DNA of 64,000 bases, taken from sequence record OZ346175.1. One strand, given 5' to 3'. The DNA comes from a phage. A program made the translations under genes and the position numbers. The notes beneath the pieces are model-generated. The model saw only the letters and a list, made by a program, of their open reading frames with translations. It had not been told where the DNA came from and did not search any database. How positions within the stretch are numbered: the first letter of the stretch is position 1; each line of letters opens with the position of its first letter. Positions 8,229-62,631 of this stretch are shown here, piece after piece.

Positions 8229-8496
8229 CATCTGGTCAATACACTCGCAAGGTGTACCAGTTCTCTTATGAACTTCTCCGCATTTCTACGGAGTGTCGGA
8301 CTATATCACGTAGTAGTAATACTACCGTTGCACTTGGGAATGGTCATTGGCTTACCACCCTACTCTACTCAGTTCATACGTTAAGTATGCTTTTCGATAG
8401 TCTCTGAACGTTCCTCTTAAGAGGCTTCGCTGCTGATTACCATATCTTTACAGACTTAGGCTTCCAGCAATTCACAACGTTTTACATGCGCCACTG
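8229..8496 (-). mobile_element. group I self-splicing intron (ORF-less) in DNA polymerase gene
   Basis: Minus-strand P (aattgctggaag), Q (aatcagcagcg), R (gttcagagacta) and S (gatatagtcc) elements; exon ends in U pairing with gcgcau guide just inside intron; intron ends in G; splicing restores IYALLFGAGDEK. Confidence 0.85.
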
Positions 8497-10639
8497 ACGC
8501 ATAAATGCCATTTTTGGCTTTCTTACGACCTTTTGTAATCTCGTGGAGAAGTTCCTCATCCTGTGTCTCCCTACAACGAACAATATCTTCTTCCTTGTTC
8601 AGACCAAAGTAAATACTGTTCAGTGTATGCGCATCAGTCCCTGTGTAGACTTCATAGAGGTCGTTCTCAGCATCATAACGAAGATACTTGTCAGTTTCTG
8701 GATTAAGGTGCTTATCAAGATGTTTGCAATAATATCTCCCATCTTCTTGCTTGGTAAATTCTACTGACTCTTTACCTTCAGTTACTGCTTTAGTGAACTC
8801 TTTATCACCCATAAAGTTACACAGTAAAACAAGCTGTGCAGAGTTCTGGTCAACAGAAACAATGTTAGTCCCCTCTTCACAAATCCACACTGCCCTCATA
8901 GGTGCTCCATAGACAGCAGCACCAGACGGTACGTTTACAATACCATATTGTGTCATACGTCCAGTTGAAGTACCAAACACCATTGCACCAGCACTAAGGC
9001 GACCATCAGGACGAATCTGGTTCAACCAACCTTTTTCATCATCCTTTGAGTTCTCAATAGTTCTGCGTCGGTGCATCAAAGTATAGTACTTAGCAATCTT
9101 CTGTCCAAGCTCACCTTCAATCGTATCATAAGATGATTCAGTAAGTTTTGGTGAAGTACGGATTAAGCAAGGCTCAAGCAAATCTGTGTACTTCTTCACA
9201 GACCAGTTATGCTCAATGTACTGTACACCTTCATGTTCAACATAACTCAAACCACACCGCTCAACCATTTCCTGCCACTTAGGATGTTTTGTAATCATCT
9301 TTTTATTGTCTTTGAAACGACAAACTTTGACAGGGCGACCATCTGAATCTTTCTTGTAGTTCCAGTCATCTGGAATCCAACCAACTGATTTCAAGTAGTC
9401 TTTAACAACTGCTACCTGAGTCATATGAGAAACTTCAAACTCAATTGGTGTATATGGTGCATCAATCAAACCTGTGTAGCGACTTGACTCAAGTTCAAAG
9501 TGATTGACAACGTGACTGTTATAGTACTTCACAGTCTTGACTGTTTTTACTGGTTTCCAGTCTTTGCATTTTTTGCCAATCTTTGCATTCAACTCGTTGC
9601 AGATTGCACGAGCATCCTTCATCGCTACAAAACCCTCTTTGTACTCTTCACCAGTTACAGAGTTGGTTGGTGTATAGCAATTTCTCTTTTCAATGTTAAA
9701 AATCTTTGTAGTTGGCTTACCAAATGGCTTGATTTCATATGTCTGCATCTCACCATTACGTACCTGCTGACGATACTTTGTCTTAGGGTACTTGGTAATT
9801 CTTTTCAGTCCATCTGCATGACCAAATGCTTCAACATACTCATTCCAAGCTTTTGCAAACTCTTCTCCAGTGACTTTACCTTTGGTCTTAATAGTTGGAG
9901 GTAGATGTGGTTCAACCTCTGAAGCAAGCTCATTAGTCAACTTGTCAAGCTCCTTTACATGGAACTCCATAAGCTCTTTATCAGCTTTCCAACCATTGAT
10001 AGCTTGTTGACTCATCCAGAAAGATGTTTCTTTAGCTCGCATGTAAGTTTCATAAGTGTCTATGCCACACTTCTTAAGCTTGAGATACTCGTTATCAAGT
10101 GCCCGTTTAGTTTTGGCGTTAATACGGATATCTTCTACAACACGAGTGAAGATTTCTGCATTCCACACACCCCAATGCTCAATCTCTGGCTTACGAACAC
10201 CAACACGAGCACCCCATGCAGCCAAGCCATGAGCACCTTTATAACCCTTTGGAGTTGGTCTATCCATCCACTGAACACGAGACTGGATAAGAGAATCCTG
10301 AAAGAAATTACTCCACGGCTTACACTTTGGATTATCAAAGTTCCATAAATCAGGTGCAATGTGATTAAAAACCCACCAGTCATAACCGAGACCGTTATGG
10401 ATGCAAAGACGTTTTGCCTTTAACGCAAATTCAACACCTTCACGTAAGCCACCCTTAATGTACTTGGTATACTTGTGACCGAGGATAGGTTCATCCGTAA
10501 AGACCCATACAGGTGGCTCTTCATCGTCAGATTTATAGTCTGCGAAAGCCATTACGTGCACTTTAGTGAACTCAAGGAGTAAACCATCAGTTTCTGTATC
10601 ACCAACTAAATGTAAGTTTTTAAAATCTACGTTTTCCAT
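8497..10639 (-). CDS. DNA polymerase, family A (T7 gp5-like), exon 1
   Basis: N-terminal 3'-5' exonuclease motif DTETDG, T7 gp5-like blocks, ends in first half of motif B (RKKAKNGIYA); start at MENVDF with GAGGGAG RBS. Confidence 0.9.
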
Positions 10640-12182: not shown

Positions 12183-12926
12183 ATGAGTAATATTATCGCA
12201 TTTACTGGAAAGGCACGTTCTGGAAAAGACACCTCATGTTCTATTGTGAAGAACATCTTAGAGGATGAGTACGGCTACAATGTTGCTGTAATGGCCTTTG
12301 CAGACAACCTTAAACTGTCTGCATCAAAGATATTTGACCTGACTTGGAATGACCTGTATGGTGAAACTAAAGAGACTCCACGGGTATTTAACTTATCATA
12401 TCCTGAACTGATGTTTAAAGTTACGGAAGCCATGAAGTTCACCTTCAGAGATGAACGTTACCATATGGACTTCAAGCTTATGTCAGAGTTAACCGGACGA
12501 TTAATCATGGAGCTTAAGAAGGTTGCTAAACCGACTCTATTGACACGTCTGGGGTTTAGCAAAAAGTATAAATTCTCATCAAGACAAATTCAACAGGTTT
12601 GGGGCACTGAAGTTGTCCGTAAAGTAATGGGCGACAAGTTCTGGTCTAAAGACCTTGAAAAAAGAATGGTTAGATTCCATGAAATGTGCTCACTTAGAAA
12701 TCAATATGGTTTTGTATTAATCAGTGATTTAAGATTTGACTCTGAAGCTGAATGGCTGAGTAGATTTGCACACCAAACTATTGAAGTAAAAAGAGACAAT
12801 GTGGACAAAGTTTCATCACATGTTTCAGAAAATGGGATTTCTACAAAATATGAGCGTGACATTATTCATAATAATGGTACTCTTGCAGACCTTGAGAACA
12901 AGCTAAGAGCCATCATTAAAGTTTAA
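12183..12926 (+). CDS. deoxynucleoside monophosphate kinase-like protein
   Basis: N-terminal P-loop FTGKARSGKDT resembling T4 gp1-type dNMP kinase. Confidence 0.65.
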   Translation: MSNIIAFTGKARSGKDTSCSIVKNILEDEYGYNVAVMAFADNLKLSASKIFDLTWNDLYGETKETPRVFNLSYPELMFKVTEAMKFTFRDERYHMDFKLMSELTGRLIMELKKVAKPTLLTRLGFSKKYKFSSRQIQQVWGTEVVRKVMGDKFWSKDLEKRMVRFHEMCSLRNQYGFVLISDLRFDSEAEWLSRFAHQTIEVKRDNVDKVSSHVSENGISTKYERDIIHNNGTLADLENKLRAIIKV

Positions 12927-56645: not shown

Positions 56646-58061
56646 ATGAGCGAGTTATTTAAACATGCGCACCTTCATGCAGGTCGAACTGAAAATGGTG
56701 CTGTAAACCATACTTCATCAATGTCTGCTCTAGTAAACTTTTACAAAGCTGCTGGTTCAAGCCGTAGCAACGTAGAAATCTTACCAGACCTGTTCTACAA
56801 AGCTTTGCGTGAGGATGTTGATGTTGCAGTTCGTATTTTGCTTCATATGCGAGATGTACGAGAAGGTATGGGTGAGCGTAAAGCCTTCAGGACTGTTTTG
56901 CTTCAAGCAATTGAAGACAAAGTTTTAGAGTCTACGCAGGTTCTTCGCATTATGGATAAGATTGCAGAACTTGGTCGTTTTGATGACTTCAAAATCTTCG
57001 TAGGTACTCGTTTCGAGACAGATGCCTTCAAACATTTAGAAGCAGCATTACTAGACCCTGCAACAGAAGGTTTGGCGGCTAAGTGGTTACCACGAGTCAA
57101 ACCACGTCATAAGCAGTTTGTAAAACGTTTCTGCAAGTTTGCCAACTTGAGTGAGAAAGAGTACCGCACACTGTTGTCTGCACTATCTGATACAGTTGAG
57201 CAAAAAATCTCTGCTAATGAGTTTGGTAAGATTGACTACAGTAAGATTCCTTCACTTGCTGCTGCACGTTACCAAAAACTGTTTAACCGTAAAGATGGAG
57301 AGCGTTACAAAGCTTACATCGAGTCCTTATCAAAAGGTGAGACTAAGATTAACGCTGGTGCTGTTTACCCATACGATGTGATTAAATCTGTCAAGTATGG
57401 TAATGCAGATGTTGCTAATGAGCAGTGGAAAGCACTACCAAACTGGATGGCAGAAGGTGAAAACATCTTGTGTATGTCTGATGTATCAAGTTCAATGTCT
57501 TGGGTGAATTTTGGCTCCATTACTGCTCTGGATATTGGTGTATCACTTGCCTTGTATGTAGCAGAACGCAATACAGGTTGCTTTAAGAATGAGTTAATGG
57601 TTTATTCAACAAACCCTCACTTCATCGAACTGAGTGGTGATTTACGAAACCGTCATCGTCAGGTGATGCGACACGTTGAATATGGCTCAACTAACTTACA
57701 AGCAGCTTTTGACCGCATTCTTGAAACAGGTAAAAGAAACAACTTGACTCAGAAAGATATGCCAAGTAAGCTTATCATCTTCTCCGATATGGAGTTCAAT
57801 CAGGTTGATGGAGCTAACGGTCGTACAAACTTTGAAGCAATTCAGAGTAAGTACAAAAAAGCTGGATATGAGATGCCACAACTGGTATTCTGGTACTTAG
57901 CAAACCGTAATGGTACTTGCGAAGTATCTGTTAAGGATAACGGTGTAGCAATGGTATCAGGGTTCTCTCCAGCCACTTTAAAAGCTCTGCTTGGTGGTGA
58001 GAAGTTTGACCCAATCAGTGTAATGCTCAAAGCAGTAATGATTGACCGTTATATCTGGTAA
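56646..58061 (+). CDS. Ro60-like (TROVE + von Willebrand A) protein
   Basis: 471 aa; helical N-terminal region then vWA MIDAS DVSSSM in ILCMSDVSSSMSW, plus IIFSDMEF and C-terminal GFSPATL blocks matching recalled Ro60. Confidence 0.6.
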   Translation: MSELFKHAHLHAGRTENGAVNHTSSMSALVNFYKAAGSSRSNVEILPDLFYKALREDVDVAVRILLHMRDVREGMGERKAFRTVLLQAIEDKVLESTQVLRIMDKIAELGRFDDFKIFVGTRFETDAFKHLEAALLDPATEGLAAKWLPRVKPRHKQFVKRFCKFANLSEKEYRTLLSALSDTVEQKISANEFGKIDYSKIPSLAAARYQKLFNRKDGERYKAYIESLSKGETKINAGAVYPYDVIKSVKYGNADVANEQWKALPNWMAEGENILCMSDVSSSMSWVNFGSITALDIGVSLALYVAERNTGCFKNELMVYSTNPHFIELSGDLRNRHRQVMRHVEYGSTNLQAAFDRILETGKRNNLTQKDMPSKLIIFSDMEFNQVDGANGRTNFEAIQSKYKKAGYEMPQLVFWYLANRNGTCEVSVKDNGVAMVSGFSPATLKALLGGEKFDPISVMLKAVMIDRYIW

Positions 58062-58079: not shown

Positions 58080-58108
58080 TTGACAATGTGTTTAATACCC
58101 TTTAATAT
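58080..58108 (+). promoter_or_regulatory. sigma70-type promoter upstream of tRNA cluster
   Basis: TTGACA-N17-TAATAT; -35 sits inside inverted repeat aagggtatt...aataccctt. Confidence 0.5.
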
Positions 58109-58389: not shown

Positions 58390-58396
58390 GTTTTGA

Positions 58397-58469
58397 CAGA
58401 AGACCAATTACAGCAAACTTAATCTTATTCATCTGAAGGTAAATCGGACAAAGAAGAGATTTGGTCTGG
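58397..58469 (+). ncRNA. structured element A (cagaagacc...ggtctgg stem family)
   Basis: 5' cagaagaccaattacagcaa and 3' tggtctgg; stem agacca/tggtct; family member without tRNA-like module. Confidence 0.35.
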
Positions 58470-58480
58470 TCATTAAGAAT

Positions 58481-58557
58481 TGCGGGTATAGAGAAAGGGC
58501 GTCTCACATGTCTCATTAGCATGGTATCGGCAGGTTCGACTCCTGCACCCGCCTCCA
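58481..58557 (+). tRNA. tRNA-Met or Ile2 (anticodon CAT), non-canonical acceptor
   Basis: D-stem gaga/tctc, anticodon stem catgt/gcatg, loop ctCATta, T-arm gcagg-ttcgact-cctgc; acceptor pairing needs one mismatch. Confidence 0.5.
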
Positions 58558-58563
58558 AATTTG

Positions 58564-58624
58564 CAGAAGACCGTATTCAGCAACAAAATACTTTTTTGCG
58601 GATAAAAGAAAAAACACGGTCTGG
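58564..58624 (+). ncRNA. structured element B (cagaagacc...ggtctgg stem family)
   Basis: cagaagaccgtattcagcaa ... cggtctgg; stem agaccg/cggtct (compensatory relative to A). Confidence 0.35.
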
Positions 58625-58635
58625 CAATGTATTAA

Positions 58636-58712
58636 GGTTAGGAAGCACATAAGGTATGTGCGGTCGCCTGTTAAGCGAATGGCACAGGGTTCGAATCCCT
58701 GACTAACCGCCA
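58636..58712 (+). tRNA. tRNA-Asn (anticodon GTT)
   Basis: D-stem gcac/gtgc, anticodon loop ctGTTaa, T-arm caggg-ttcgaat-ccctg, CCA encoded; position 8 is A (atypical). Confidence 0.55.
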
Positions 58713-58720
58713 AATTAAAT

Positions 58721-58808
58721 GTGTCGTTATCCCGTAGATGGTAGCGGTGGGGACTGTAAATCCCTTGTCATTGAGACTCGGTAGGTTCGACTCCTACACG
58801 GCACACCA
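58721..58808 (+). tRNA. tRNA-Tyr (anticodon GTA)
   Basis: 88 nt with long variable arm; anticodon stem gggga/tccct, loop ctGTAaa; T-arm gtagg-ttcgact-cctac; CCA encoded. Confidence 0.7.
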
Positions 58809-58813
58809 ATAAA

Positions 58814-58890
58814 GGCTATGTAGTTTAACTGGAGAAAATACTCCCCTGTCACGGGAGATGATGTGAGTTCAAGTCTCATCGTAGCCGCCA
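58814..58890 (+). tRNA. tRNA-Asp (anticodon GTC)
   Basis: Acceptor ggctatg/cgtagcc, anticodon stem ctccc/gggag, loop ctGTCac, T-loop ttcaagt, CCA encoded. Confidence 0.75.
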
Positions 58891-58951
58891 ATTTTGAGAG
58901 GGCTATTTAGCCCCTCCCTTAAAGAGTTCTTACGAGTATTCTTTAAGGGAG

Positions 58952-59035
58952 CAGAAGACCAAATACAGCAAGAATGTATGAAATTTCAAGCCAATTTAAT
59001 TTTGAAAATTTAAAACTTGGTCTGGCTCAACAAAT
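58952..59035 (+). ncRNA. structured element C (cagaagacc...ggtctgg stem family)
   Basis: cagaagaccaaatacagcaa ... ttggtctgg; stem agaccaa/ttggtct. Confidence 0.35.
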
Positions 59036-59038
59036 TTA

Positions 59039-59170
59039 CAGAAGACCGTTTACAGCAAAACTTAAACAATCTATTTCTCCGGTAAAGAAAAGGCGAAGGT
59101 TCGATTCCTTCACTCGGCAGATGTCGAGTTGGTGTAATGGTAGCACTTAAGATGATAAACAACGGTCTGG
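59039..59170 (+). ncRNA. Y-RNA-like element D with circularly permuted tRNA-like module
   Basis: 8-bp closing stem agaccgtt/aacggtct; internally T-arm gaagg-ttcgatt-ccttc, acceptor-like stem actcggc-agat-gtcgagt closed by a loop, then D-arm gtg-taatggtag-cac. Confidence 0.5.
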
Positions 59171-59171
59171 T

Positions 59172-59315
59172 AATTATCTTTGTAGATAAGTTATTAAGCT
59201 TACCTGTGAGTATGCGACCACAAAGGGTGAAAGGGTAAATTCTAGATTTAAACCCAACAAGGCACATCGCTACAGACCTTAAGCAAGTCTGGGTAGCTTA
59301 TCTACAAAGATAATT
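59172..59315 (+). ncRNA. structured element closed by 19-bp perfect inverted repeat
   Basis: aattatctttgtagataag (59172-59190) exactly complementary to cttatctacaaagataatt (59297-59315); internal cagacc...gtctgg hairpin. Confidence 0.4.
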
Positions 59316-59319
59316 TAAT

Positions 59320-59395
59320 GGAAGTGTAGCAGAATGGTGATGCGGCAGACTTTTAATCTGACAGGCGATGGGTTCGAATCCCTCCACTTCTACCA
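59320..59395 (+). tRNA. tRNA-Lys (anticodon TTT)
   Basis: Acceptor ggaagtg/cacttct, anticodon loop ctTTTaa, T-loop ttcgaat (T-stem needs a bulge), CCA encoded. Confidence 0.55.
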
Positions 59396-59399
59396 ATAT

Positions 59400-59476
59400 G
59401 GTTCAGTCGCAGATAAGGTAATGCAAGGGTCTCATAAGCCCTATGAATGTTGGTTCGATTCCCATCTGAACCTCCA
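59400..59476 (+). tRNA. tRNA-Met (anticodon CAT)
   Basis: Acceptor ggttcag/ctgaacc, anticodon stem agggt/gccct, loop ctCATaa, T-loop ttcgatt, CCA encoded. Confidence 0.6.
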
Positions 59477-59477
59477 A

Positions 59478-59553
59478 GCTGGTATAGTTAAGAAGGTTAT
59501 AACACTCCCCTGATAAGGGAACATCGGTGGTTCGATTCCACCTACCAGTACCA
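59478..59553 (+). tRNA. tRNA-Ile (anticodon GAT)
   Basis: Acceptor gctggta/taccagt, D-stem gtta/taac, anticodon loop ctGATaa, T-arm ggtgg-ttcgatt-ccacc, CCA encoded. Confidence 0.75.
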
Positions 59554-59568
59554 ATTTCAATAAAGTTG

Positions 59569-59597
59569 TTGACATTGAGATGTGACTACTTTATAGT
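59569..59597 (+). promoter_or_regulatory. sigma70-type promoter internal to tRNA cluster
   Basis: TTGACA-N17-TATAGT. Confidence 0.5.
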
Positions 59598-59798
59598 AAC
59601 CTTAGTTTTCGTTGCGTAGCGTCTATTTTGCAAATTTAAAATAAATGCAAACGACAATGTTTTTCTGGCAGTAGCTTGATAGGCTAAACACCAGTGAGGT
59701 CTTCCAATCCCTCATCAAAGAATTTGGCGTACTCGCCCACGGTATGATTAATAAGGTGGGCATCTTTAAGGGCTTTCTAAGAGAGTCTTTAAAGATAA

Positions 59799-59876
59799 TG
59801 CACCCTTAGTTCAATTGGATAGAGCAACGGTCTTCTAAATCGTTAGTTACAGGTTCGAATCCTGTAGGGTGTACCA
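59799..59876 (+). tRNA. tRNA-Arg (anticodon TCT)
   Basis: Acceptor gcaccct/agggtgt, D-arm gttc-aattggata-gagc, anticodon stem acggt/atcgt, loop ctTCTaa, T-arm acagg-ttcgaat-cctgt, CCA encoded. Confidence 0.75.
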
Positions 59877-60018
59877 AATAGTTAGCAGATTACTTAGACG
59901 GCCTTAGCGGGTCTTCCTGTAGGGAGGTGGTCTGTATCTCATGTTTTCCAGAACATGTAAATAATCTGAGAAGAAGCTTGACAGTGTTGAGATAACAGGG
60001 TAAGCTTCGAATTATAAT

Positions 60019-60101
60019 ATGGGACGATGTTAAGACTCTAAGGCATGAGCAACGGCCTCCAAAACCGTTTCAAAGGGGTTCAACTCCTCCGTCCCATGCC
60101 A
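60019..60101 (+). tRNA. tRNA-like gene, probable Trp (anticodon CCA), atypical D region
   Basis: Acceptor atgggac/gtcccat, anticodon loop ctCCAaa, T-loop ttcaact, CCA encoded; D region about 7 nt longer than canonical. Confidence 0.45.
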
Positions 60102-60114
60102 AAGTCTTATTAGG

Positions 60115-60202
60115 GGTAGGTAGCGGCTAATGGCAGCCAAACAGTCTTGAAAACTGTTGCCACTGTAGAGATACGGTGAGGGTTCGACTCCTTTACTTAC
60201 CG
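60115..60202 (+). tRNA. tRNA-Ser (anticodon TGA)
   Basis: 88 nt with long variable arm; anticodon stem acagt/actgt, loop ctTGAaa; T-arm gaggg-ttcgact-ccttt; CCA not encoded. Confidence 0.7.
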
Positions 60203-60458
60203 CCTAATAAGATTTACTCCGTCCATGCTTGTTCGCATTGTCGGTTTATCCCTCGTGTATTGTCGTACACTGTCAAAGCACCTAGTAGGTGTCACGGAGA
60301 AGAGATAATATCAAGCTCTCCAAAGGTTCTAGTCACCGGATTAAACAAGACTATGCAAAGACCTATTTAGGTCTTTTTAGAGGGCTTCTAAGGTTATTAG
60401 TCGCTTGTTGTGGAACCTTGTTGCTCAGGTTCTTAGAAGTTCTCTAAAAAGATTTAAT

Positions 60459-60536
60459 GGGAGATTGACGGTAATTGGTAAACCTACCATCCTTAGAAGT
60501 TGGTGTTTGAGGGTTCGAATCCCTTGTCTCCTACCA
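60459..60536 (+). tRNA. tRNA with apparent anticodon TAG (Leu-type) on short-variable-arm scaffold
   Basis: Acceptor gggagat/gtctcct, anticodon loop ctTAGaa, T-arm gaggg-ttcgaat-ccctt, A73, CCA encoded; no long variable arm. Confidence 0.45.
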
Positions 60537-60543
60537 AATTAAT

Positions 60544-60619
60544 GCAGGTGTAGCAAAATGGTTATGCGGCTGACTCTTAATCAGTAAGACGATGGGTTCA
60601 ATTCCCTCCACCTGTACCA
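60544..60619 (+). tRNA. tRNA-Lys (anticodon CTT)
   Basis: Paralog of 59320..59395; acceptor gcaggtg/cacctgt, anticodon stem gctga/tcagt, loop ctCTTaa, T-loop ttcaatt, CCA encoded. Confidence 0.6.
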
Positions 60620-60625
60620 GACATC

Positions 60626-60702
60626 GGGGTCATAGTTTATATGGTTAAAATTCGAGTTTTGCAAACTTGGGAACTGAGTTCAATTCTCAGTGACTCCACC
60701 AA
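60626..60702 (+). tRNA. tRNA-Ala (anticodon TGC)
   Basis: Acceptor ggggtca/tgactcc, anticodon stem cgagt/acttg, loop ttTGCaa, T-arm ctgag-ttcaatt-ctcag, CCA encoded. Confidence 0.7.
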
Positions 60703-60708
60703 TTAGTG

Positions 60709-60781
60709 CATCCATAGTTTAAACGGGAAAATTACAGTCTTCCAAACTGAGGTTGAGGGTTCGATTCCCTCTGGATGCTCC
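60709..60781 (+). tRNA. tRNA-Gly (anticodon TCC)
   Basis: Acceptor gcatcca/tggatgc, anticodon loop ctTCCaa, T-arm gaggg-ttcgatt-ccctc. Confidence 0.65.
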
Positions 60782-60796
60782 AAATTAAGGTGTGAT

Positions 60797-61210
60797 ATGA
60801 AAATATGCAGTACTTGCAGAATACCAAAAGATGAAAGCTTATTCCATAAGAATAAGAACAAGAAAGATGGTCTTCAAAGTCAATGCAAAGACTGTGCAAG
60901 ACTTCGTGATGCAAAGAGTTATCAAGCAAATGATAAAAGGAAAGAGGCTATTAAAAGCACTCGTAACTTCAAGAGAGAGTATAACAAGACTCTAGCTAGA
61001 AGGTACAAAGCTTTATGCAAATGTCATATATGTGGTGAGAAAGAACCAGTTGCATTGGATTTACACCATACAGACCCTTCCCAGAAAGATTTGAATCCTG
61101 CATCACTTTATTCATACTCCACAAAAAGATTAAAAGATGAAATCAGAAAGTGCATTGTCTTGTGCGCTAACTGTCACAGAAAAGTACATGCTGGTATCAT
61201 AAAAGTTTAA
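60797..61210 (+). CDS. HNH endonuclease inside tRNA cluster
   Basis: 137 aa; zinc-binding Cys pairs and HNH motif (LDLHHTDP...CANCHRKVH); flanked by tRNA genes. Confidence 0.75.
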   Translation: MKICSTCRIPKDESLFHKNKNKKDGLQSQCKDCARLRDAKSYQANDKRKEAIKSTRNFKREYNKTLARRYKALCKCHICGEKEPVALDLHHTDPSQKDLNPASLYSYSTKRLKDEIRKCIVLCANCHRKVHAGIIKV

Positions 61211-61211
61211 T

Positions 61212-61288
61212 GCTGCTTTCGTATAATTGGCTATTACACATCCCTTGTAAGGATGGAAATGCAGGTTCAAGTCCTGTGAGCAGCACCA
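61212..61288 (+). tRNA. tRNA-Thr (anticodon TGT)
   Basis: Acceptor gctgctt/gagcagc, anticodon stem catcc/ggatg, loop ctTGTaa, T-arm gcagg-ttcaagt-cctgt, CCA encoded. Confidence 0.75.
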
Positions 61289-61292
61289 ATTC

Positions 61293-61379
61293 AGAGGTCA
61301 AGTGAAAGACCGCTTTGAGTCAACTGAAGACCGTAACAAATCCCACGGAGTTGAGTTAGCGGCACAACTCCAGACCTCT
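61293..61379 (+). ncRNA. structured element E between tRNA genes
   Basis: Closing stem agaggtc/gacctct; internal hairpin ggagttg-agttagcggca-caactcc; two gaagacc motifs. Confidence 0.35.
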
Positions 61380-61384
61380 TTCAT

Positions 61385-61459
61385 ACTCGCTTAGTTTATA
61401 TGGTAAAACATCACCCTTACAAGATGAAGAAAAAGGTTCAAGTCCTTTAGTGAGTACCA
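61385..61459 (+). tRNA. tRNA-Val (anticodon TAC)
   Basis: Acceptor actcgct/agtgagt, D-stem gttt/aaac, anticodon loop ctTACaa, T-arm aaagg-ttcaagt-ccttt, CCA encoded. Confidence 0.7.
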
Positions 61460-61460
61460 T

Positions 61461-61538
61461 GTTCCAGTATCCCAATTGGCAGAGGATGCAAGCTCAAACC
61501 TTGTATTAGTGACGGTTCGAATCCGTCTTGGAACACCA
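61461..61538 (+). tRNA. tRNA with apparent anticodon CAA (Leu-type) on short-variable-arm scaffold
   Basis: Acceptor gttccag/ttggaac, anticodon stem gcaag/cttgt, loop ctCAAac, T-arm gacgg-ttcgaat-ccgtc, A73, CCA encoded. Confidence 0.45.
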
Positions 61539-61543
61539 ATTTT

Positions 61544-61619
61544 GCAGGATTAGTTCAAATGGATAGAGCAACAGTCTACGAAGCTGTTAATAGGGGTTCG
61601 AATCCCTTATCCTGCGCCA
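61544..61619 (+). tRNA. tRNA-Arg (anticodon ACG)
   Basis: Acceptor gcaggat/atcctgc, D-arm gttc-aaatggata-gagc, anticodon stem acagt/gctgt, loop ctACGaa, T-loop ttcgaat, CCA encoded. Confidence 0.75.
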
Positions 61620-61638
61620 ATTTAAAGAGGCTATTTAG

Positions 61639-62196
61639 ATGAGATATTTGAAGTATGCTTCATGGATTTTTTTAGCTTTGTTAGAGCCATTTGCAGCAAT
61701 CTTAGCAGTTATCTTAGCACCTTTTGTAGTTCCATTCTACAGTGAGAAGAAAGGACACTTACCTTTCGGGTTCAGATGGATGGAGACATATGACAACCCA
61801 ATTGATGGTGATGAAGGTCACGTTAAAAGATGGGCTAATATTAGATGGATTGGTAAACTAGGTGTCTACATGCAAAGAGTCGGATGGCTCTGGAGAAACA
61901 AAGCTTATAACTTCTCTTACCATGTATTAGGAAGAGATGTAAGAGATGTTACTAAGTGGAAAGGTAATATCAACGTAAGTTCTGACCCCGAAGATAATCA
62001 GACAGGTTATCTCCTAATGTGGAACAGTAATGCTTGGGGATTATTCGCTTTTATCCCATCAATTAAAATCTTTGGTAAACAATTTTACTGGAGAATTTAT
62101 ATTGGATGGAAACTAAAAAGTGTTGTCCCAGAAGAAAGAGCATTCTCAAGGGAAAGAGTTATGTTGGCATTCTTTATTCATCCACTGAGAAAGTAA
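61639..62196 (+). CDS. hypothetical membrane protein
   Basis: 185 aa; hydrophobic N-terminus (WIFLALLEPFAAILAVILAPFVVPF), Trp-rich; embedded in tRNA cluster. Confidence 0.5.
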   Translation: MRYLKYASWIFLALLEPFAAILAVILAPFVVPFYSEKKGHLPFGFRWMETYDNPIDGDEGHVKRWANIRWIGKLGVYMQRVGWLWRNKAYNFSYHVLGRDVRDVTKWKGNINVSSDPEDNQTGYLLMWNSNAWGLFAFIPSIKIFGKQFYWRIYIGWKLKSVVPEERAFSRERVMLAFFIHPLRK

Positions 62197-62442: not shown

Positions 62443-62473
62443 CTTCTAAGGATTCTTGCGAGAGTCCTTAAAT

Positions 62474-62549
62474 GTGGCCTTATCATAAACGGTAATGACC
62501 CATGCTGTGAACATGGTCTATACGGGTTCAAATCCCGTAGGTCACCCCA
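62474..62549 (+). tRNA. tRNA-His (anticodon GTG)
   Basis: Acceptor gtggcct/aggtcac, D-stem tcat/atga, anticodon stem ccatg/catgg, loop ctGTGaa, T-arm acggg-ttcaaat-cccgt, CCA encoded. Confidence 0.75.
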
Positions 62550-62554
62550 ATTTA

Positions 62555-62631
62555 TAGTCCAAGTAGCTTATATGGTTAAAGCGCGTGTCTGAAAAACATG
62601 AGAAGAGGGTTCAAATCCCACTGGACTACCA
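62555..62631 (+). tRNA. tRNA-Phe (anticodon GAA)
   Basis: Acceptor tagtcca/tggacta, D-stem gctt/aagc, anticodon stem cgtgt/acatg, loop ctGAAaa, T-loop ttcaaat; 3' end register ambiguous. Confidence 0.55.

What the first reader, a model, noticed from the sequence alone, without database searches (positions are those of the whole stretch)
59172..61379. Additional long-stem structured elements in the tRNA cluster
59172-59315 is closed by a 19-bp perfect inverted repeat enclosing about 106 nt with an internal cagacc...gtctgg hairpin. 61293-61379 is closed by agaggtc/gacctct and contains a 7-bp internal hairpin and two gaagacc motifs. These look like further non-coding RNAs or processing signals related to elements A-D.
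Basis: seen in the sequence. Interest (0 to 1): 0.45.

Follow-up and report, generated by a model that had tools for sequence, protein, structure and literature searches.

The report
Two conserved structured RNAs among phage tRNAs
Two short stretches between the tRNA genes of a FelixO1-like phage are real, evolutionarily maintained, non-coding RNA structures belonging to no described RNA family; their function is unknown, and one of them always travels with a phage copy of the RNA-binding protein Ro60.

Summary
The window is a FelixO1-like phage (Felixounavirus). Both intervals exist as described.

E1 (59172-59315) is closed by the longest inverted repeat in the 64-kb window. It is a conserved RNA family. 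A covariance model built on close relatives finds it in four phages too diverged for BLAST, and a fifth has it by inspection and folding. It always sits just 5' of tRNA-Lys(UUU). It has a 22-27-bp covarying closing helix and a hairpin (H3) with a conserved 9-nt loop, CYUWWRCAA. All these phages carry a Ro60-fold gene and Y-RNA-like "A-D" elements just upstream.

E2 (61293-61379) is 94-98% identical across three genera, while the flanking tRNA-Thr is about 70% identical. It also occurs in the unrelated phage Av-05, which has no Ro60-like gene. Compensatory changes support a closing stem, a 7-bp hairpin and a pseudoknot around an invariant 23-nt strand.

Neither element is coding, a tRNA or a match to any Rfam family. 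They are most likely small stable RNAs cut out of the tRNA precursor, as T4 rnaC and rnaD are. E1 probably belongs to the Ro60-like module; E2 works independently of it. Function is inferred, not shown. They are new RNA families of a known kind, of moderate interest.

The parts
59172..59315 (+). E1: 144-nt structured RNA, a multi-branch fold closed by a long helix
   Evidence: Model R1 scores 110.9 bits on the + strand against 21.3 on the - strand. Homologues occur in diverged phages.
59172..59195 (+). E1 closing helix, 5' strand (pairs with 59292-59315)
   Evidence: 24 bp in the MFE fold. Of 22 modelled pairs counted over 19 sequences, 21 show at least 2 canonical pair types and 8 of 418 cells are unpaired.
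59292..59315 (+). E1 closing helix, 3' strand; it ends 4 nt before tRNA-Lys(UUU)
59200..59230 (+). E1 hairpin H1, the variable part that differs between the two alleles
59233..59255 (+). E1 hairpin H2; the apex AUUCUAGAUU is conserved and the lower stem is swapped between alleles (GGG/CCC against AGC/GCU)
59273..59291 (+). E1 hairpin H3: CAGAC-CUUAAGCAA-GUCUG, with a 9-nt loop of consensus CYUWWRCAA
   Evidence: Seven different stem sequences occur across lineages. All 95 cells are canonical pairs.
61293..61379 (+). E2: 87-nt structured RNA, 94-98% identical across Felixounavirus, Mooglevirus and Suspvirus
61293..61299 (+). E2 closing stem, 5' strand (pairs with 61373-61379)
   Evidence: G-C changes to U-A in the Av-05 lineage, with a G.U variant in another sequence.
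61310..61313 (+). E2 pseudoknot stem S1, 5' strand: CCGC, pairing with GCGG at 61359-61362 in the hairpin loop
   Evidence: G-C changes to A-U in L053, with a G.U form in L075.
61319..61341 (+). E2 invariant strand GUCAACUGAAGACCGUAACAAAU, predicted single-stranded
   Evidence: Identical in all 22 distinct variants, including Av-05.
61347..61371 (+). E2 7-bp hairpin GGAGUUG / CAACUCC, whose 11-nt loop carries GCGG
   Evidence: 100% paired in 22 sequences, with one double change and three one-sided changes.
61373..61379 (+). E2 closing stem, 3' strand; it ends 5 nt before tRNA-Val
56646..58061 (+). Context: Ro60-like protein (DUF2828 + DUF7788/vWA), 1.1 kb upstream of E1
   Evidence: Pfam. AF2 model with pLDDT 86.7. 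The top 12 PDB matches are all Ro60. The homologue in phage Bas63, gp130, counters the ppl defence system (PMC11482910).
58395..59171 (+). Context: elements A-D, Y-RNA-like; D ends at 59171 and abuts E1
59320..59395 (+). Context: tRNA-Lys(UUU), always the gene immediately 3' of E1
61212..61288 (+). Context: tRNA-Thr(UGU), 4 nt upstream of E2
61385..61459 (+). Context: tRNA-Val(UAC), 5 nt downstream of E2

Best explanation
Both intervals are selectively maintained, non-coding RNA structures on the + strand. They are transcribed as part of the long tRNA precursors. They are most likely released as discrete small RNAs by the same enzymes that trim the neighbouring tRNAs, as happens for T4 rnaC and rnaD. 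RNase P cutting at the 5' end of tRNA-Lys (4 nt downstream of E1) and of tRNA-Val (5 nt downstream of E2) would set the 3' ends. 3' maturation of tRNA-Thr upstream would set the 5' end of E2. An endonuclease cut at the D/E1 junction or within the E1 helix would set the 5' end of E1.

E1 is a ~144-nt multi-branch RNA. It has a 22-27-bp closing helix and a hairpin (H3) with a conserved loop that resembles the motif of the neighbouring Y-RNA-like A-D elements. It is a fixed part of the module 'Ro60-like gene, A-D RNAs, E1, tRNA-Lys(UUU)'. It therefore probably works with, or is handled by, the Ro60-like protein.

E2 is an 87-nt RNA in which a closing stem, a 7-bp hairpin and a 4-bp pseudoknot present an invariant 23-nt strand. 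It probably acts through sequence-specific binding of a protein or RNA partner, and does so without the Ro60-like protein.

Shown here: the existence, strand, conservation, covariation, non-coding nature and distribution of both elements. Inferred: excision, stability, partners and function.
For: Identity and context: the window is a Felixounavirus with 26 tRNAs on the + strand. Promoter-like sites lie at 58080 and 59569 and at about 59980 (read from the sequence), and no + strand terminator occurs before 63719.

E1:
- It has the longest inverted repeat in the window, with z = -5.7.
- Two alleles are about 62% identical overall yet fold alike, with z = -5.9 for the second allele.
- Model R1, built from Felixounavirus, Mooglevirus and Suspvirus sequences, finds E1 at 50.2, 34.9, 26.6 and 21.3 bits in four diverged phages. 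Their Ro60-like proteins are only 53-63% identical to the window's. Each hit ends at tRNA-Lys(UUU). A fifth case was found by folding.
- 21 of 22 closing-helix pairs covary, and H3 has seven different stems with no broken pair.
- G.U pairs and the 110.9 against 21.3 bit scores pick the + strand.

E2:
- It is 94-98% identical across genera, against about 70% for tRNA-Thr and about 85% for tRNA-Val.
- It is present in Av-05 directly 3' of a tRNA.
- 98.2% of cells are paired. Each of the three helices has one double compensatory change, and a G.U variant at the same pair is seen in another sequence. No shuffle out of 500 reaches the observed value on 4 of 5 measures. The covariation score is 0.117, against at most 0.063 when the partners are slid.

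Non-coding: every frame of E1 has stop codons in every homologue. E2 carries 1-nt indels between variants.

Precedents: T4 rnaC and rnaD abut tRNA-Arg with spacers of 1-6 nt and are real RNAs of unknown function (PMC9697503). Phage Ro60 proteins with phage-encoded Y-like RNAs are known (PMC12135203).
Against: No transcript data were available, so discrete stable RNAs are not shown. The covariation counts for E1, and for two of the three E2 helices, come from alignments fitted to the model, which leans towards the structure. E2 varies so little that an alternative nested fold is almost as compatible: 97.1% of cells are paired, and only three cells break its fold-specific helices. The E1-Ro60 link rests on co-occurrence within one syntenic clade, so it is confounded by phylogeny. 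Bas63 gp130 counters ppl when moved into T7 without any of these RNAs (PMC11482910), so that activity at least does not need E1.
Confidence: 0.55

Rival explanations
1. The elements are purely cis-acting processing or insulator structures. The 22-27-bp E1 helix would be an RNase III site that separates the upstream Y-like RNAs from tRNA-Lys. E2 would be a folding insulator or exonuclease block between tRNA-Thr and tRNA-Val. After cleavage the pieces would be waste.
For: The E1 helix is kept at about two helical turns or more in every lineage, while its sequence changes completely. Only structure is selected there, as expected for a double-strand-specific nuclease. There is no spacer between element D and E1, so some endonuclease must separate them. 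Both elements lie 4-6 nt from tRNA ends. From my own knowledge, not retrieved here: T4 species 1 RNA is cut by RNase III in vitro.
Against: A simple hairpin would be enough for an RNase III site, yet E1 keeps a multi-branch interior with a conserved H3 loop and H2 apex. The 23-nt invariant strand of E2, kept even in Av-05 where an ORF rather than a tRNA follows it, argues for sequence-specific recognition rather than a passive block. The 7-bp stems of E2 are too short for RNase III.
Confidence: 0.2
2. E1 and E2 are true Y RNAs. They would bind the outer surface of the phage Ro60-like ring and tether or gate it, like YrlA/YrlB or the Thermus phage Yrl1/Yrl2.
For: Both lie within 4 kb downstream of a Ro60-fold gene on the same strand. 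Their 5' and 3' ends pair. E1 co-occurs with that gene in all the diverged relatives examined. The H3 loop resembles the A-D motif. PMC11482910 had already guessed that Y RNAs hide among the Bas63 'tRNAs'.
Against: Neither element has a CGAA, GNCGAAN0-1G or GGUCCGA motif. Neither matches the Rfam Y_RNA or YrlA models. The E1 closing helix is perfect in the window and lacks the conserved bulge. E2 persists in Av-05, which has no Ro60-like gene, and is missing from Ro60-bearing relatives. Elements A-D fit the Y-RNA description far better.
Confidence: 0.12
3. The elements are relics: decayed tRNA genes, or scars or miniature copies of a mobile element with terminal inverted repeats, left by the homing endonucleases active in this region.
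For: An HNH gene (60797-61210) is inserted nearby in only some genomes. E1 exists as two very different alleles in otherwise near-identical genomes. E2 has moved between phage subfamilies.
Against: There is no tRNA signal from ARAGORN or from Rfam up to E = 10. Each element is present as a single copy per genome at a fixed position. Compensatory substitutions and near-complete sequence conservation show purifying selection, not decay.
Confidence: 0.04
4. The elements are DNA-level signals, such as a cruciform, a recombination site or a homing-endonuclease recognition site, rather than RNAs.
For: Inverted repeats can form on either strand. The invariant 23-mer of E2 could be a protein-binding DNA site.
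Against: Many pairs are G.U, which would be A/C mismatches on the other strand and in a DNA cruciform. The model score is strongly asymmetric between strands. Both elements sit inside transcription units of highly expressed tRNAs.
Confidence: 0.04

Closest known systems
Phage T4 rnaC (species 1, 139 nt) and rnaD (species 2, 119 nt)
   Same: They are small structured RNAs encoded inside a phage tRNA cluster. They are separated from a tRNA and from each other by only 1-6 nt, co-transcribed and processed with the tRNAs, and still of unknown function (PMC9697503). rnaC is close in size to E1 and also folds well, with z = -4.6.
   Different: There is no sequence or structure homology: models R1 and R2 give no hit at E up to 10 in the T4 locus. 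rnaC carries a tRNA-like T arm, which E1 and E2 lack. I know of no Ro60-like gene next to the T4 tRNA cluster, and none is annotated within the 10 kb examined.
Y RNAs of Ro60 (bacterial YrlA/YrlB; Thermus phage phiLo Yrl1/Yrl2)
   Same: They are encoded next to a Ro60-fold gene on the same strand. Their ends pair into a stem around a structured or looped interior. Several RNAs can come from one precursor (PMC4201824; PMC12135203).
   Different: E1 and E2 lack the CGAA or GNCGAAN0-1G motif, the bulged Ro-binding helix and any Rfam match. E2 occurs without Ro60. The neighbouring A-D elements, not E1 or E2, have the bulged helix, and element D has the YrlA-like permuted tRNA domain.
RNase III processing stems (rRNA operon stems, T7 early-region R sites)
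   Same: The E1 closing helix is 22-27 bp, selected for pairing rather than sequence, and lies at a boundary between RNAs of one precursor.
   Different: Cleavage was not tested. E1 carries a conserved, complex interior that a processing stem does not need. E2 has no long helix.
H-type RNA pseudoknots
   Same: The helices of E2 follow the order S1-5', S2-5', S1-3', S2-3', and each stem has a compensatory change.
   Different: Loop 1 is unusually long (about 32 nt) and invariant in sequence. There is no match to any pseudoknotted Rfam family. The fold has not been probed.

Membership tests
Y RNA (Ro60-associated) | Encoded within about 4 kb of a Ro60 orthologue, on the same strand | tested here: met
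   E1 starts 1.1 kb and E2 3.2 kb downstream of ORF 56646-58061. The ORF's AF2 model matches only Ro60 structures at the top of the PDB search.
Y RNA (Ro60-associated) | 5' and 3' ends base-pair into a terminal stem | tested here: met
   E1 has a 22-27-bp terminal stem and E2 a 7-bp one.
Y RNA (Ro60-associated) | Conserved Ro-binding motif (GGUCCGA, GNCGAAN0-1G or CGAA) in a bulged helix near the 5' end | tested here: not met
   None of these motifs is present in E1 or E2. The E1 helix in the window has no bulge.
Y RNA (Ro60-associated) | Match to the Rfam Y_RNA (RF00019) or YrlA (RF02553) covariance models | tested here: not met
   There is no hit in either interval up to E = 10. The only YrlA hit (17.3 bits, E = 8) lies at 62495-62617, over tRNAs.
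Y RNA (Ro60-associated) | Co-occurs with the Ro60 gene across genomes (E1) | tested here: inconclusive
   E1 with H3 is present in all FelixO1-like lineages examined that carry the gene. It is absent as such from Av-05, which lacks the gene. All positives belong to one syntenic clade, and two T4-like Ro60-bearing loci lack it.
Y RNA (Ro60-associated) | Co-occurs with the Ro60 gene across genomes (E2) | tested here: not met
   E2 is present in Av-05, which has no Ro60-like gene. It is absent from five Ro60-bearing diverged relatives.
Y RNA (Ro60-associated) | Physically bound by Ro60 | not testable with these tools
   This needs RIP, CLIP or gel-shift assays.
tRNA or tRNA-like domain | Cloverleaf with T-loop and D-loop consensus | tested here: not met
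   ARAGORN and the Rfam tRNA models give no hit inside either interval.
T4 rnaC/rnaD-type stable RNAs | Structured RNA gene embedded in a phage tRNA cluster, a few nt from a tRNA | tested here: met
   Spacers are 4-5 nt here and 1-6 nt in T4.
T4 rnaC/rnaD-type stable RNAs | Sequence and structure homology to rnaC or rnaD | tested here: not met
   R1 and R2 give no hit in the T4 locus, and the folds differ.
RNase III substrate | Near-continuous helix of about 20 bp or more | tested here: met
   Met for E1 only: 24 bp in the window and 22-27 bp in all lineages. The longest E2 helix is 7 bp.
RNase III substrate | Cleaved by RNase III | not testable with these tools
   This needs an rnc mutant or an in vitro cleavage assay.
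Miniature inverted-repeat mobile element | Multiple dispersed copies with terminal inverted repeats and target-site duplications | tested here: not met
   Each genome has one copy at one fixed position.

The most novel reading that the evidence does not exclude
E1 (perhaps as one composite RNA with the abutting YrlA-like element D) and E2 are trans-acting phage RNAs used in conflict with the host. E1 would be an RNA subunit or substrate of the anti-defence Ro60-like particle. E2 would be a pseudoknotted decoy or guide whose invariant 23-nt strand captures a host RNA-binding or RNA-cutting factor. That would explain why E2 was transferred to, and kept unchanged in, an unrelated phage that lacks Ro60.
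Probability: 0.15. Interest if true: 0.8.

Novelty: new variant of a known kind. Interest (0 to 1): 0.5.

Why it matters
FelixO1-like phages are widely used for Salmonella and E. coli typing and for biocontrol. Even so, the spacers in their tRNA region are unannotated, or carry spurious ORFs, in every record inspected.

This work adds two undescribed RNA families with comparative support. It also places E1 in a conserved module together with a Ro60-fold protein that has been shown experimentally to counter a bacterial defence system, and with good candidate phage Y RNAs.

If these RNAs are partners of that protein, they offer a tractable E. coli and Salmonella system for studying what Ro60 particles do during infection. 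E2, a pseudoknot with an invariant loop that has crossed between phage subfamilies, is a clean candidate for a trans-acting phage small RNA. The long-standing question of what the non-tRNA stable RNAs of phage tRNA clusters do (T4 rnaC and rnaD) gains two more test cases.

Tried and rejected
- Known RNA family: Rfam 15 at gathering score and at E up to 10 gave nothing in either interval.
- Missed tRNA: no.
- Coding: E1 has stop codons in all six frames in every homologue. The open frames of E2 are broken by 1-nt indels between variants.
- Nested MFE fold of E2: not excluded, but its fold-specific helices have no double change and three broken cells. The hairpin-plus-pseudoknot model has a double change in every helix.
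- E2 as a mimic of the 16S rRNA 3' domain (UGAAGACCGUAACAA against 16S 1490-1503 UGAAGUCGUAACAA): not significant. 619 of 1000 shuffles do as well against the whole 16S, and 172 of 5000 against its last 80 nt. The anti-SD-like closing stem is not kept in Av-05.
- E1 hairpin H3 as a mimic of the tRNA-Lys(UUU) anticodon arm: the stems look alike in FelixO1-like genomes but do not co-vary in five other lineages.
- Antisense targets of E2: BLAST against 5,426 E. coli genomes gave no match, though the test is insensitive to short seeds. Within the window only 9-10-nt complementarities were found, which is chance level.
- E2 as Ro60-dependent: rejected, because Av-05 has no Ro60-like gene (tblastn E above 1) and diverged Ro60-bearing phages have no E2.
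- Homology to T4 rnaC or rnaD: none.
- E1 in T4-like phages that carry the Ro60-like gene (Aeh1, Vibrio XZ1): none within 15-kb loci.
- Literature on FelixO1 transcripts: nothing usable found. The older T4 RNase III paper could not be retrieved.
Full report
**What the window is.** The tRNA region matches 290 phage records. The best matches are Felixounavirus, that is, FelixO1-like phages of Escherichia and Salmonella. ARAGORN finds 26 tRNA genes, all on the + strand, between 58228 and 63556. Immediately upstream lies a 471-aa ORF (56646-58061, +) with Pfam domains DUF2828 and DUF7788. I modelled it with AlphaFold2 from a 24-sequence alignment (pLDDT 86.7, pTM 0.87). The twelve best PDB matches are all Ro60 structures over the full length, with TM scores of about 0.5-0.65. 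A preprint reports that the corresponding Bas63 protein, gp130, is Ro60-like. It counters the ppl defence system, also when moved into T7. The authors guessed that some Bas63 'tRNAs' might be Y RNAs (PMC11482910).

**Checking the observation.** E1: the arms 59172-59193 and 59294-59315 are 22 nt and 95% complementary (19 perfect pairs, then a G.U position), with 100 nt between them. This is the longest inverted repeat within 400 nt in the whole window. About 2e-4 such repeats are expected by chance. The RNA folds at -48.3 kcal/mol, z = -5.7. Seven-bp stems are common by chance (about 550 expected) and the z-score is only -3.3. E2 therefore needs comparative evidence to count as real. One detail is wrong: E2 has one GAAGACC and one GAAAGACC, not two GAAGACC motifs.

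**E1 is a conserved RNA family.** Among Ounavirinae, E1 exists as two alleles. They are about 62% identical overall, while the flanking element D and tRNA-Lys are 97-100% identical in some of the same genomes, such as CRP22 and JLBYU32. Both alleles fold into the same shape (z = -5.7 and -5.9):
- a closing helix of about 24 bp;
- a variable hairpin H1;
- a hairpin H2 with a conserved apex AUUCUAGAUU and a swapped lower stem;
- a hairpin H3 directly before the 3' strand of the closing helix.

RNAalifold reports 9 pairs with double compensatory changes. A covariance model built on these sequences (R1) finds full-length matches in four much more distant phages, whose Ro60-like proteins are only 53-63% identical to the window's:
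- L046, 50.2 bits;
- Yersinia phage P778, 34.9 bits;
- L047, 26.6 bits;
- L049, 21.3 bits.

Each match ends at the start of tRNA-Lys(UUU). A fifth lineage, L048, shows the same architecture by folding. I counted pairs over 19 + strand homologues. In the closing helix, 21 of 22 modelled pairs show two to four canonical pair types and 8 of 418 cells are unpaired. H3 has no unpaired cell. That alignment was fitted to the model, so it leans towards the structure. The H3 stems are CAGAC/GUCUG, CAAACC/GGUUUG, CAGUC/GACUG, AAAGUC/GACUUU, CUGUUC/GAACGG, CAACC/GGUUG and AGAGAC/GUCUCU. Every H3 loop is 9 nt and fits C-Y-U-W-W-R-C-A-A. The + strand scores 110.9 bits against 21.3 for the - strand, and many pairs are G.U. 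Every reading frame of E1 contains stop codons in every homologue.

**E1 in its module.** The same diverged phages also keep the 'A-D' type elements. These have the consensus RCA-N-AAG, a 4-5-nt stem strand, N2, UWCAGCAA ... the complementary strand, CUGGY. The stems covary, and so do the two closing base pairs (GC..GC or AC..GU) around an ANA/G internal loop. That is the anatomy expected of Y RNAs. Element D also has a T arm, an acceptor-like hairpin and a D arm in the YrlA order (PMC4201824). Element D ends at 59171 and E1 begins at 59172, so there is no spacer. The H3 loop (for example CUUAAGCAA or CUUUAGCAA) resembles the UWCAGCAA motif. E1 is therefore a fixed member of the module Ro60-like gene, A-D, E1, tRNA-Lys(UUU). 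E1 itself fails the Y-RNA tests that can be run here: it has no CGAA-type motif and no Rfam Y_RNA or YrlA match. Phage Av-05 has no Ro60-like gene (tblastn). Before its tRNA-Lys(UUU) it has a long-stem element whose helix base resembles that of E1. That element has a different interior and no H3.

**E2.** Across Felixounavirus, Mooglevirus and Suspvirus, E2 is 94-98% identical. The flanking tRNA-Thr is about 70% identical and tRNA-Val about 85%. The only other home found is Escherichia phage Av-05 (Vequintavirinae). There E2 is 83% identical and directly follows tRNA-Gly, with an ORF rather than a tRNA after it. Two Av-05-like metagenomic contigs carry it as well. Scans of IMG/VR and of the metagenome collection with the core sequence added variants. 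On 22 distinct sequences, the model of closing stem plus 7-bp hairpin plus a 4-bp pseudoknot (CCGC 61310-61313 with GCGG 61359-61362 in the hairpin loop) has 98.2% of cells paired. Each helix has one double compensatory change, and a G.U variant at the same pair is seen in another sequence:
- G-C to U-A in the closing stem (Av-05 lineage);
- G-C to A-U in the pseudoknot (L053, with G.U in L075);
- A-U to G-C in the hairpin (Av-05 lineage, with G.U in L057).

No shuffle out of 500 reaches the observed values on four of five measures. The covariation score is 0.117, against at most 0.063 for the slid controls. The nested MFE fold is nearly as compatible (97.1% paired), but its own helices have no double change and three breaks. 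Between the pseudoknot stem and the hairpin lies the strand GUCAACUGAAGACCGUAACAAAU (61319-61341), identical in all 22 variants. One-nt indels upstream of it rule out coding. A model of E2 (R2) finds nothing in five diverged Ro60-bearing relatives. E2 is therefore not tied to the Ro60-like gene. Its only link to A-D is the 10-mer GAAGACCGUA, shared with element B.

**How they probably work.** Promoter-like sites lie on the + strand at 58080 and 59569 and at about 59980 (read from the sequence). No + strand terminator-like site occurs before 63719. E1 and E2 are therefore parts of polycistronic tRNA precursors. tRNA-Lys starts 4 nt after E1 and tRNA-Val 5 nt after E2. tRNA-Thr ends 4 nt before E2. 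RNase P and the tRNA 3'-end enzymes will therefore free these segments whether or not that is their purpose.

This is the arrangement of T4 rnaC and rnaD, which abut tRNA-Arg with 1-6-nt spacers. They are bona fide RNAs of still unknown function (PMC9697503) but are not homologous to E1 or E2.

I consider it most likely (0.55) that both are released as stable small RNAs. E1 would serve in or be handled by the Ro60-like system. E2 would act through its invariant strand on an unknown partner. Excision, stability and partners are inferences. The main rival (0.2) is that they are only cis-acting processing or insulator structures. The length of the E1 helix, kept at 22-27 bp while its sequence turns over completely, fits an RNase III site. 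The conserved interior of E1 and the invariant strand of E2 argue that there is more to them. True Y-RNA membership (0.12), relics or mobile scars (0.04) and DNA-level signals (0.04) are less likely, for the reasons given under each rival.

**Ideas tested and dropped.**
- Resemblance of the E2 strand to 16S rRNA 1490-1503 is not significant.
- The H3 stem does not co-vary with the tRNA-Lys anticodon stem.
- No antisense target emerged.

**Novelty and verdict.** None of the annotated GenBank records inspected marks either element. FelixO1 itself carries a spurious '-' strand ORF94 over E1. Rfam 15 has no matching family. The literature found only speculates that Y RNAs may hide among the tRNAs. 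These are two new RNA families of a known general kind, the non-tRNA structured RNAs of phage tRNA operons next to a phage Ro60 module. Their function is unknown and interest is moderate (0.5).

Noticed in passing
window 58395-59171 (+); also L042 10138-10875 and L046-L049: Elements A-D form a covarying family. The consensus is RCA-N-AAG, stem strand, N2, UWCAGCAA ... complementary strand, CUGGY, with an ANA/G internal loop and covarying closing pairs. Element D (59038-59171) has a T arm, an acceptor-like hairpin and a D arm in YrlA order. They are strong candidate Y RNAs for the Ro60-like protein.
   Followed up: partly
window 56646-58061 (+): The DUF2828 + DUF7788 ORF has a Ro60 fold: the top 12 PDB hits are all Ro60. 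It is syntenic (DUF5681, Ro60-like gene, tRNA cluster, DUF7217, terminase) in all relatives. Homologues occur in 710 phage records, including Vibrio, Aeromonas, Listeria, Staphylococcus, Campylobacter and Mycobacterium phages.
   Followed up: yes
window 60021-60098 (+); L042 ~12415-12497: A tRNA-like gene with anticodon loop CUCCAAA (Trp, CCA) and an oversized D arm. ARAGORN misses it, and it gives only a 23-bit tRNA-Sec hit. It is 84-97% conserved among most relatives compared.
   Followed up: no
window 59172-59315 compared with L004/L005 and L046: The two E1 alleles are both old. Allele 1 motifs recur in the distant L046 lineage, while allele 2 occurs in Mooglevirus, Suspvirus and some Felixounavirus genomes. 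Near-identical genomes can carry either allele, which points to cassette-like exchange of the E1 interior.
   Followed up: partly
L002 3920-4889 (Av-05) compared with window 60708-62196: Av-05 shares a block with FelixO1-like phages: tRNA-Gly(UCC), E2 and a DUF7338 ORF. It also shares the 13 nt before tRNA-Lys(UUU). This indicates horizontal exchange of tRNA-region modules between phage subfamilies.
   Followed up: partly
window 58914-58951, 59762-59796, 60367-60457, 62443-62473: Several hairpins have similar arms (CTTTAAGGG / CCCTTAAAG-like). The 58914 hairpin is 93-98% conserved, and 60367-60457 has 26-nt arms. They may be another repeated structural signal in the tRNA region.
   Followed up: no
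window 60797-61210 (+): A weak-HNH endonuclease ORF lies between tRNA-Gly and tRNA-Thr. Among the ten genomes compared it is present only in the window and in FelixO1, so it is an optional homing-endonuclease insertion.
   Followed up: no
window 59495-59799 (+): Weak sub-threshold tmRNA-like hits: tmRNA_permuted at 29.2 bits and RF00023 at 15.7 bits. They fall in a 246-nt spacer that is 85-98% conserved, downstream of the promoter-like site at 59569.
   Followed up: no
window 8276-8559 (-): A group I intron scoring above the Rfam gathering score: 64.2 bits, full-length.
   Followed up: no
L050 11184-11305 (Aeromonas phage Aeh1): The record annotates a 122-nt 'tRNA-Val' 2.7 kb downstream of its Ro60-like gene. 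That is too long for a tRNA, so it may be a YrlA-type RNA.
   Followed up: no
L052, L069, L074 (marine metagenome contigs): Three related AT-rich contigs share a 24-nt identity with the E2 core (TAACTGAAGACCGTAACAAATGCC) in an otherwise unrelated context. This is probably chance.
   Followed up: no
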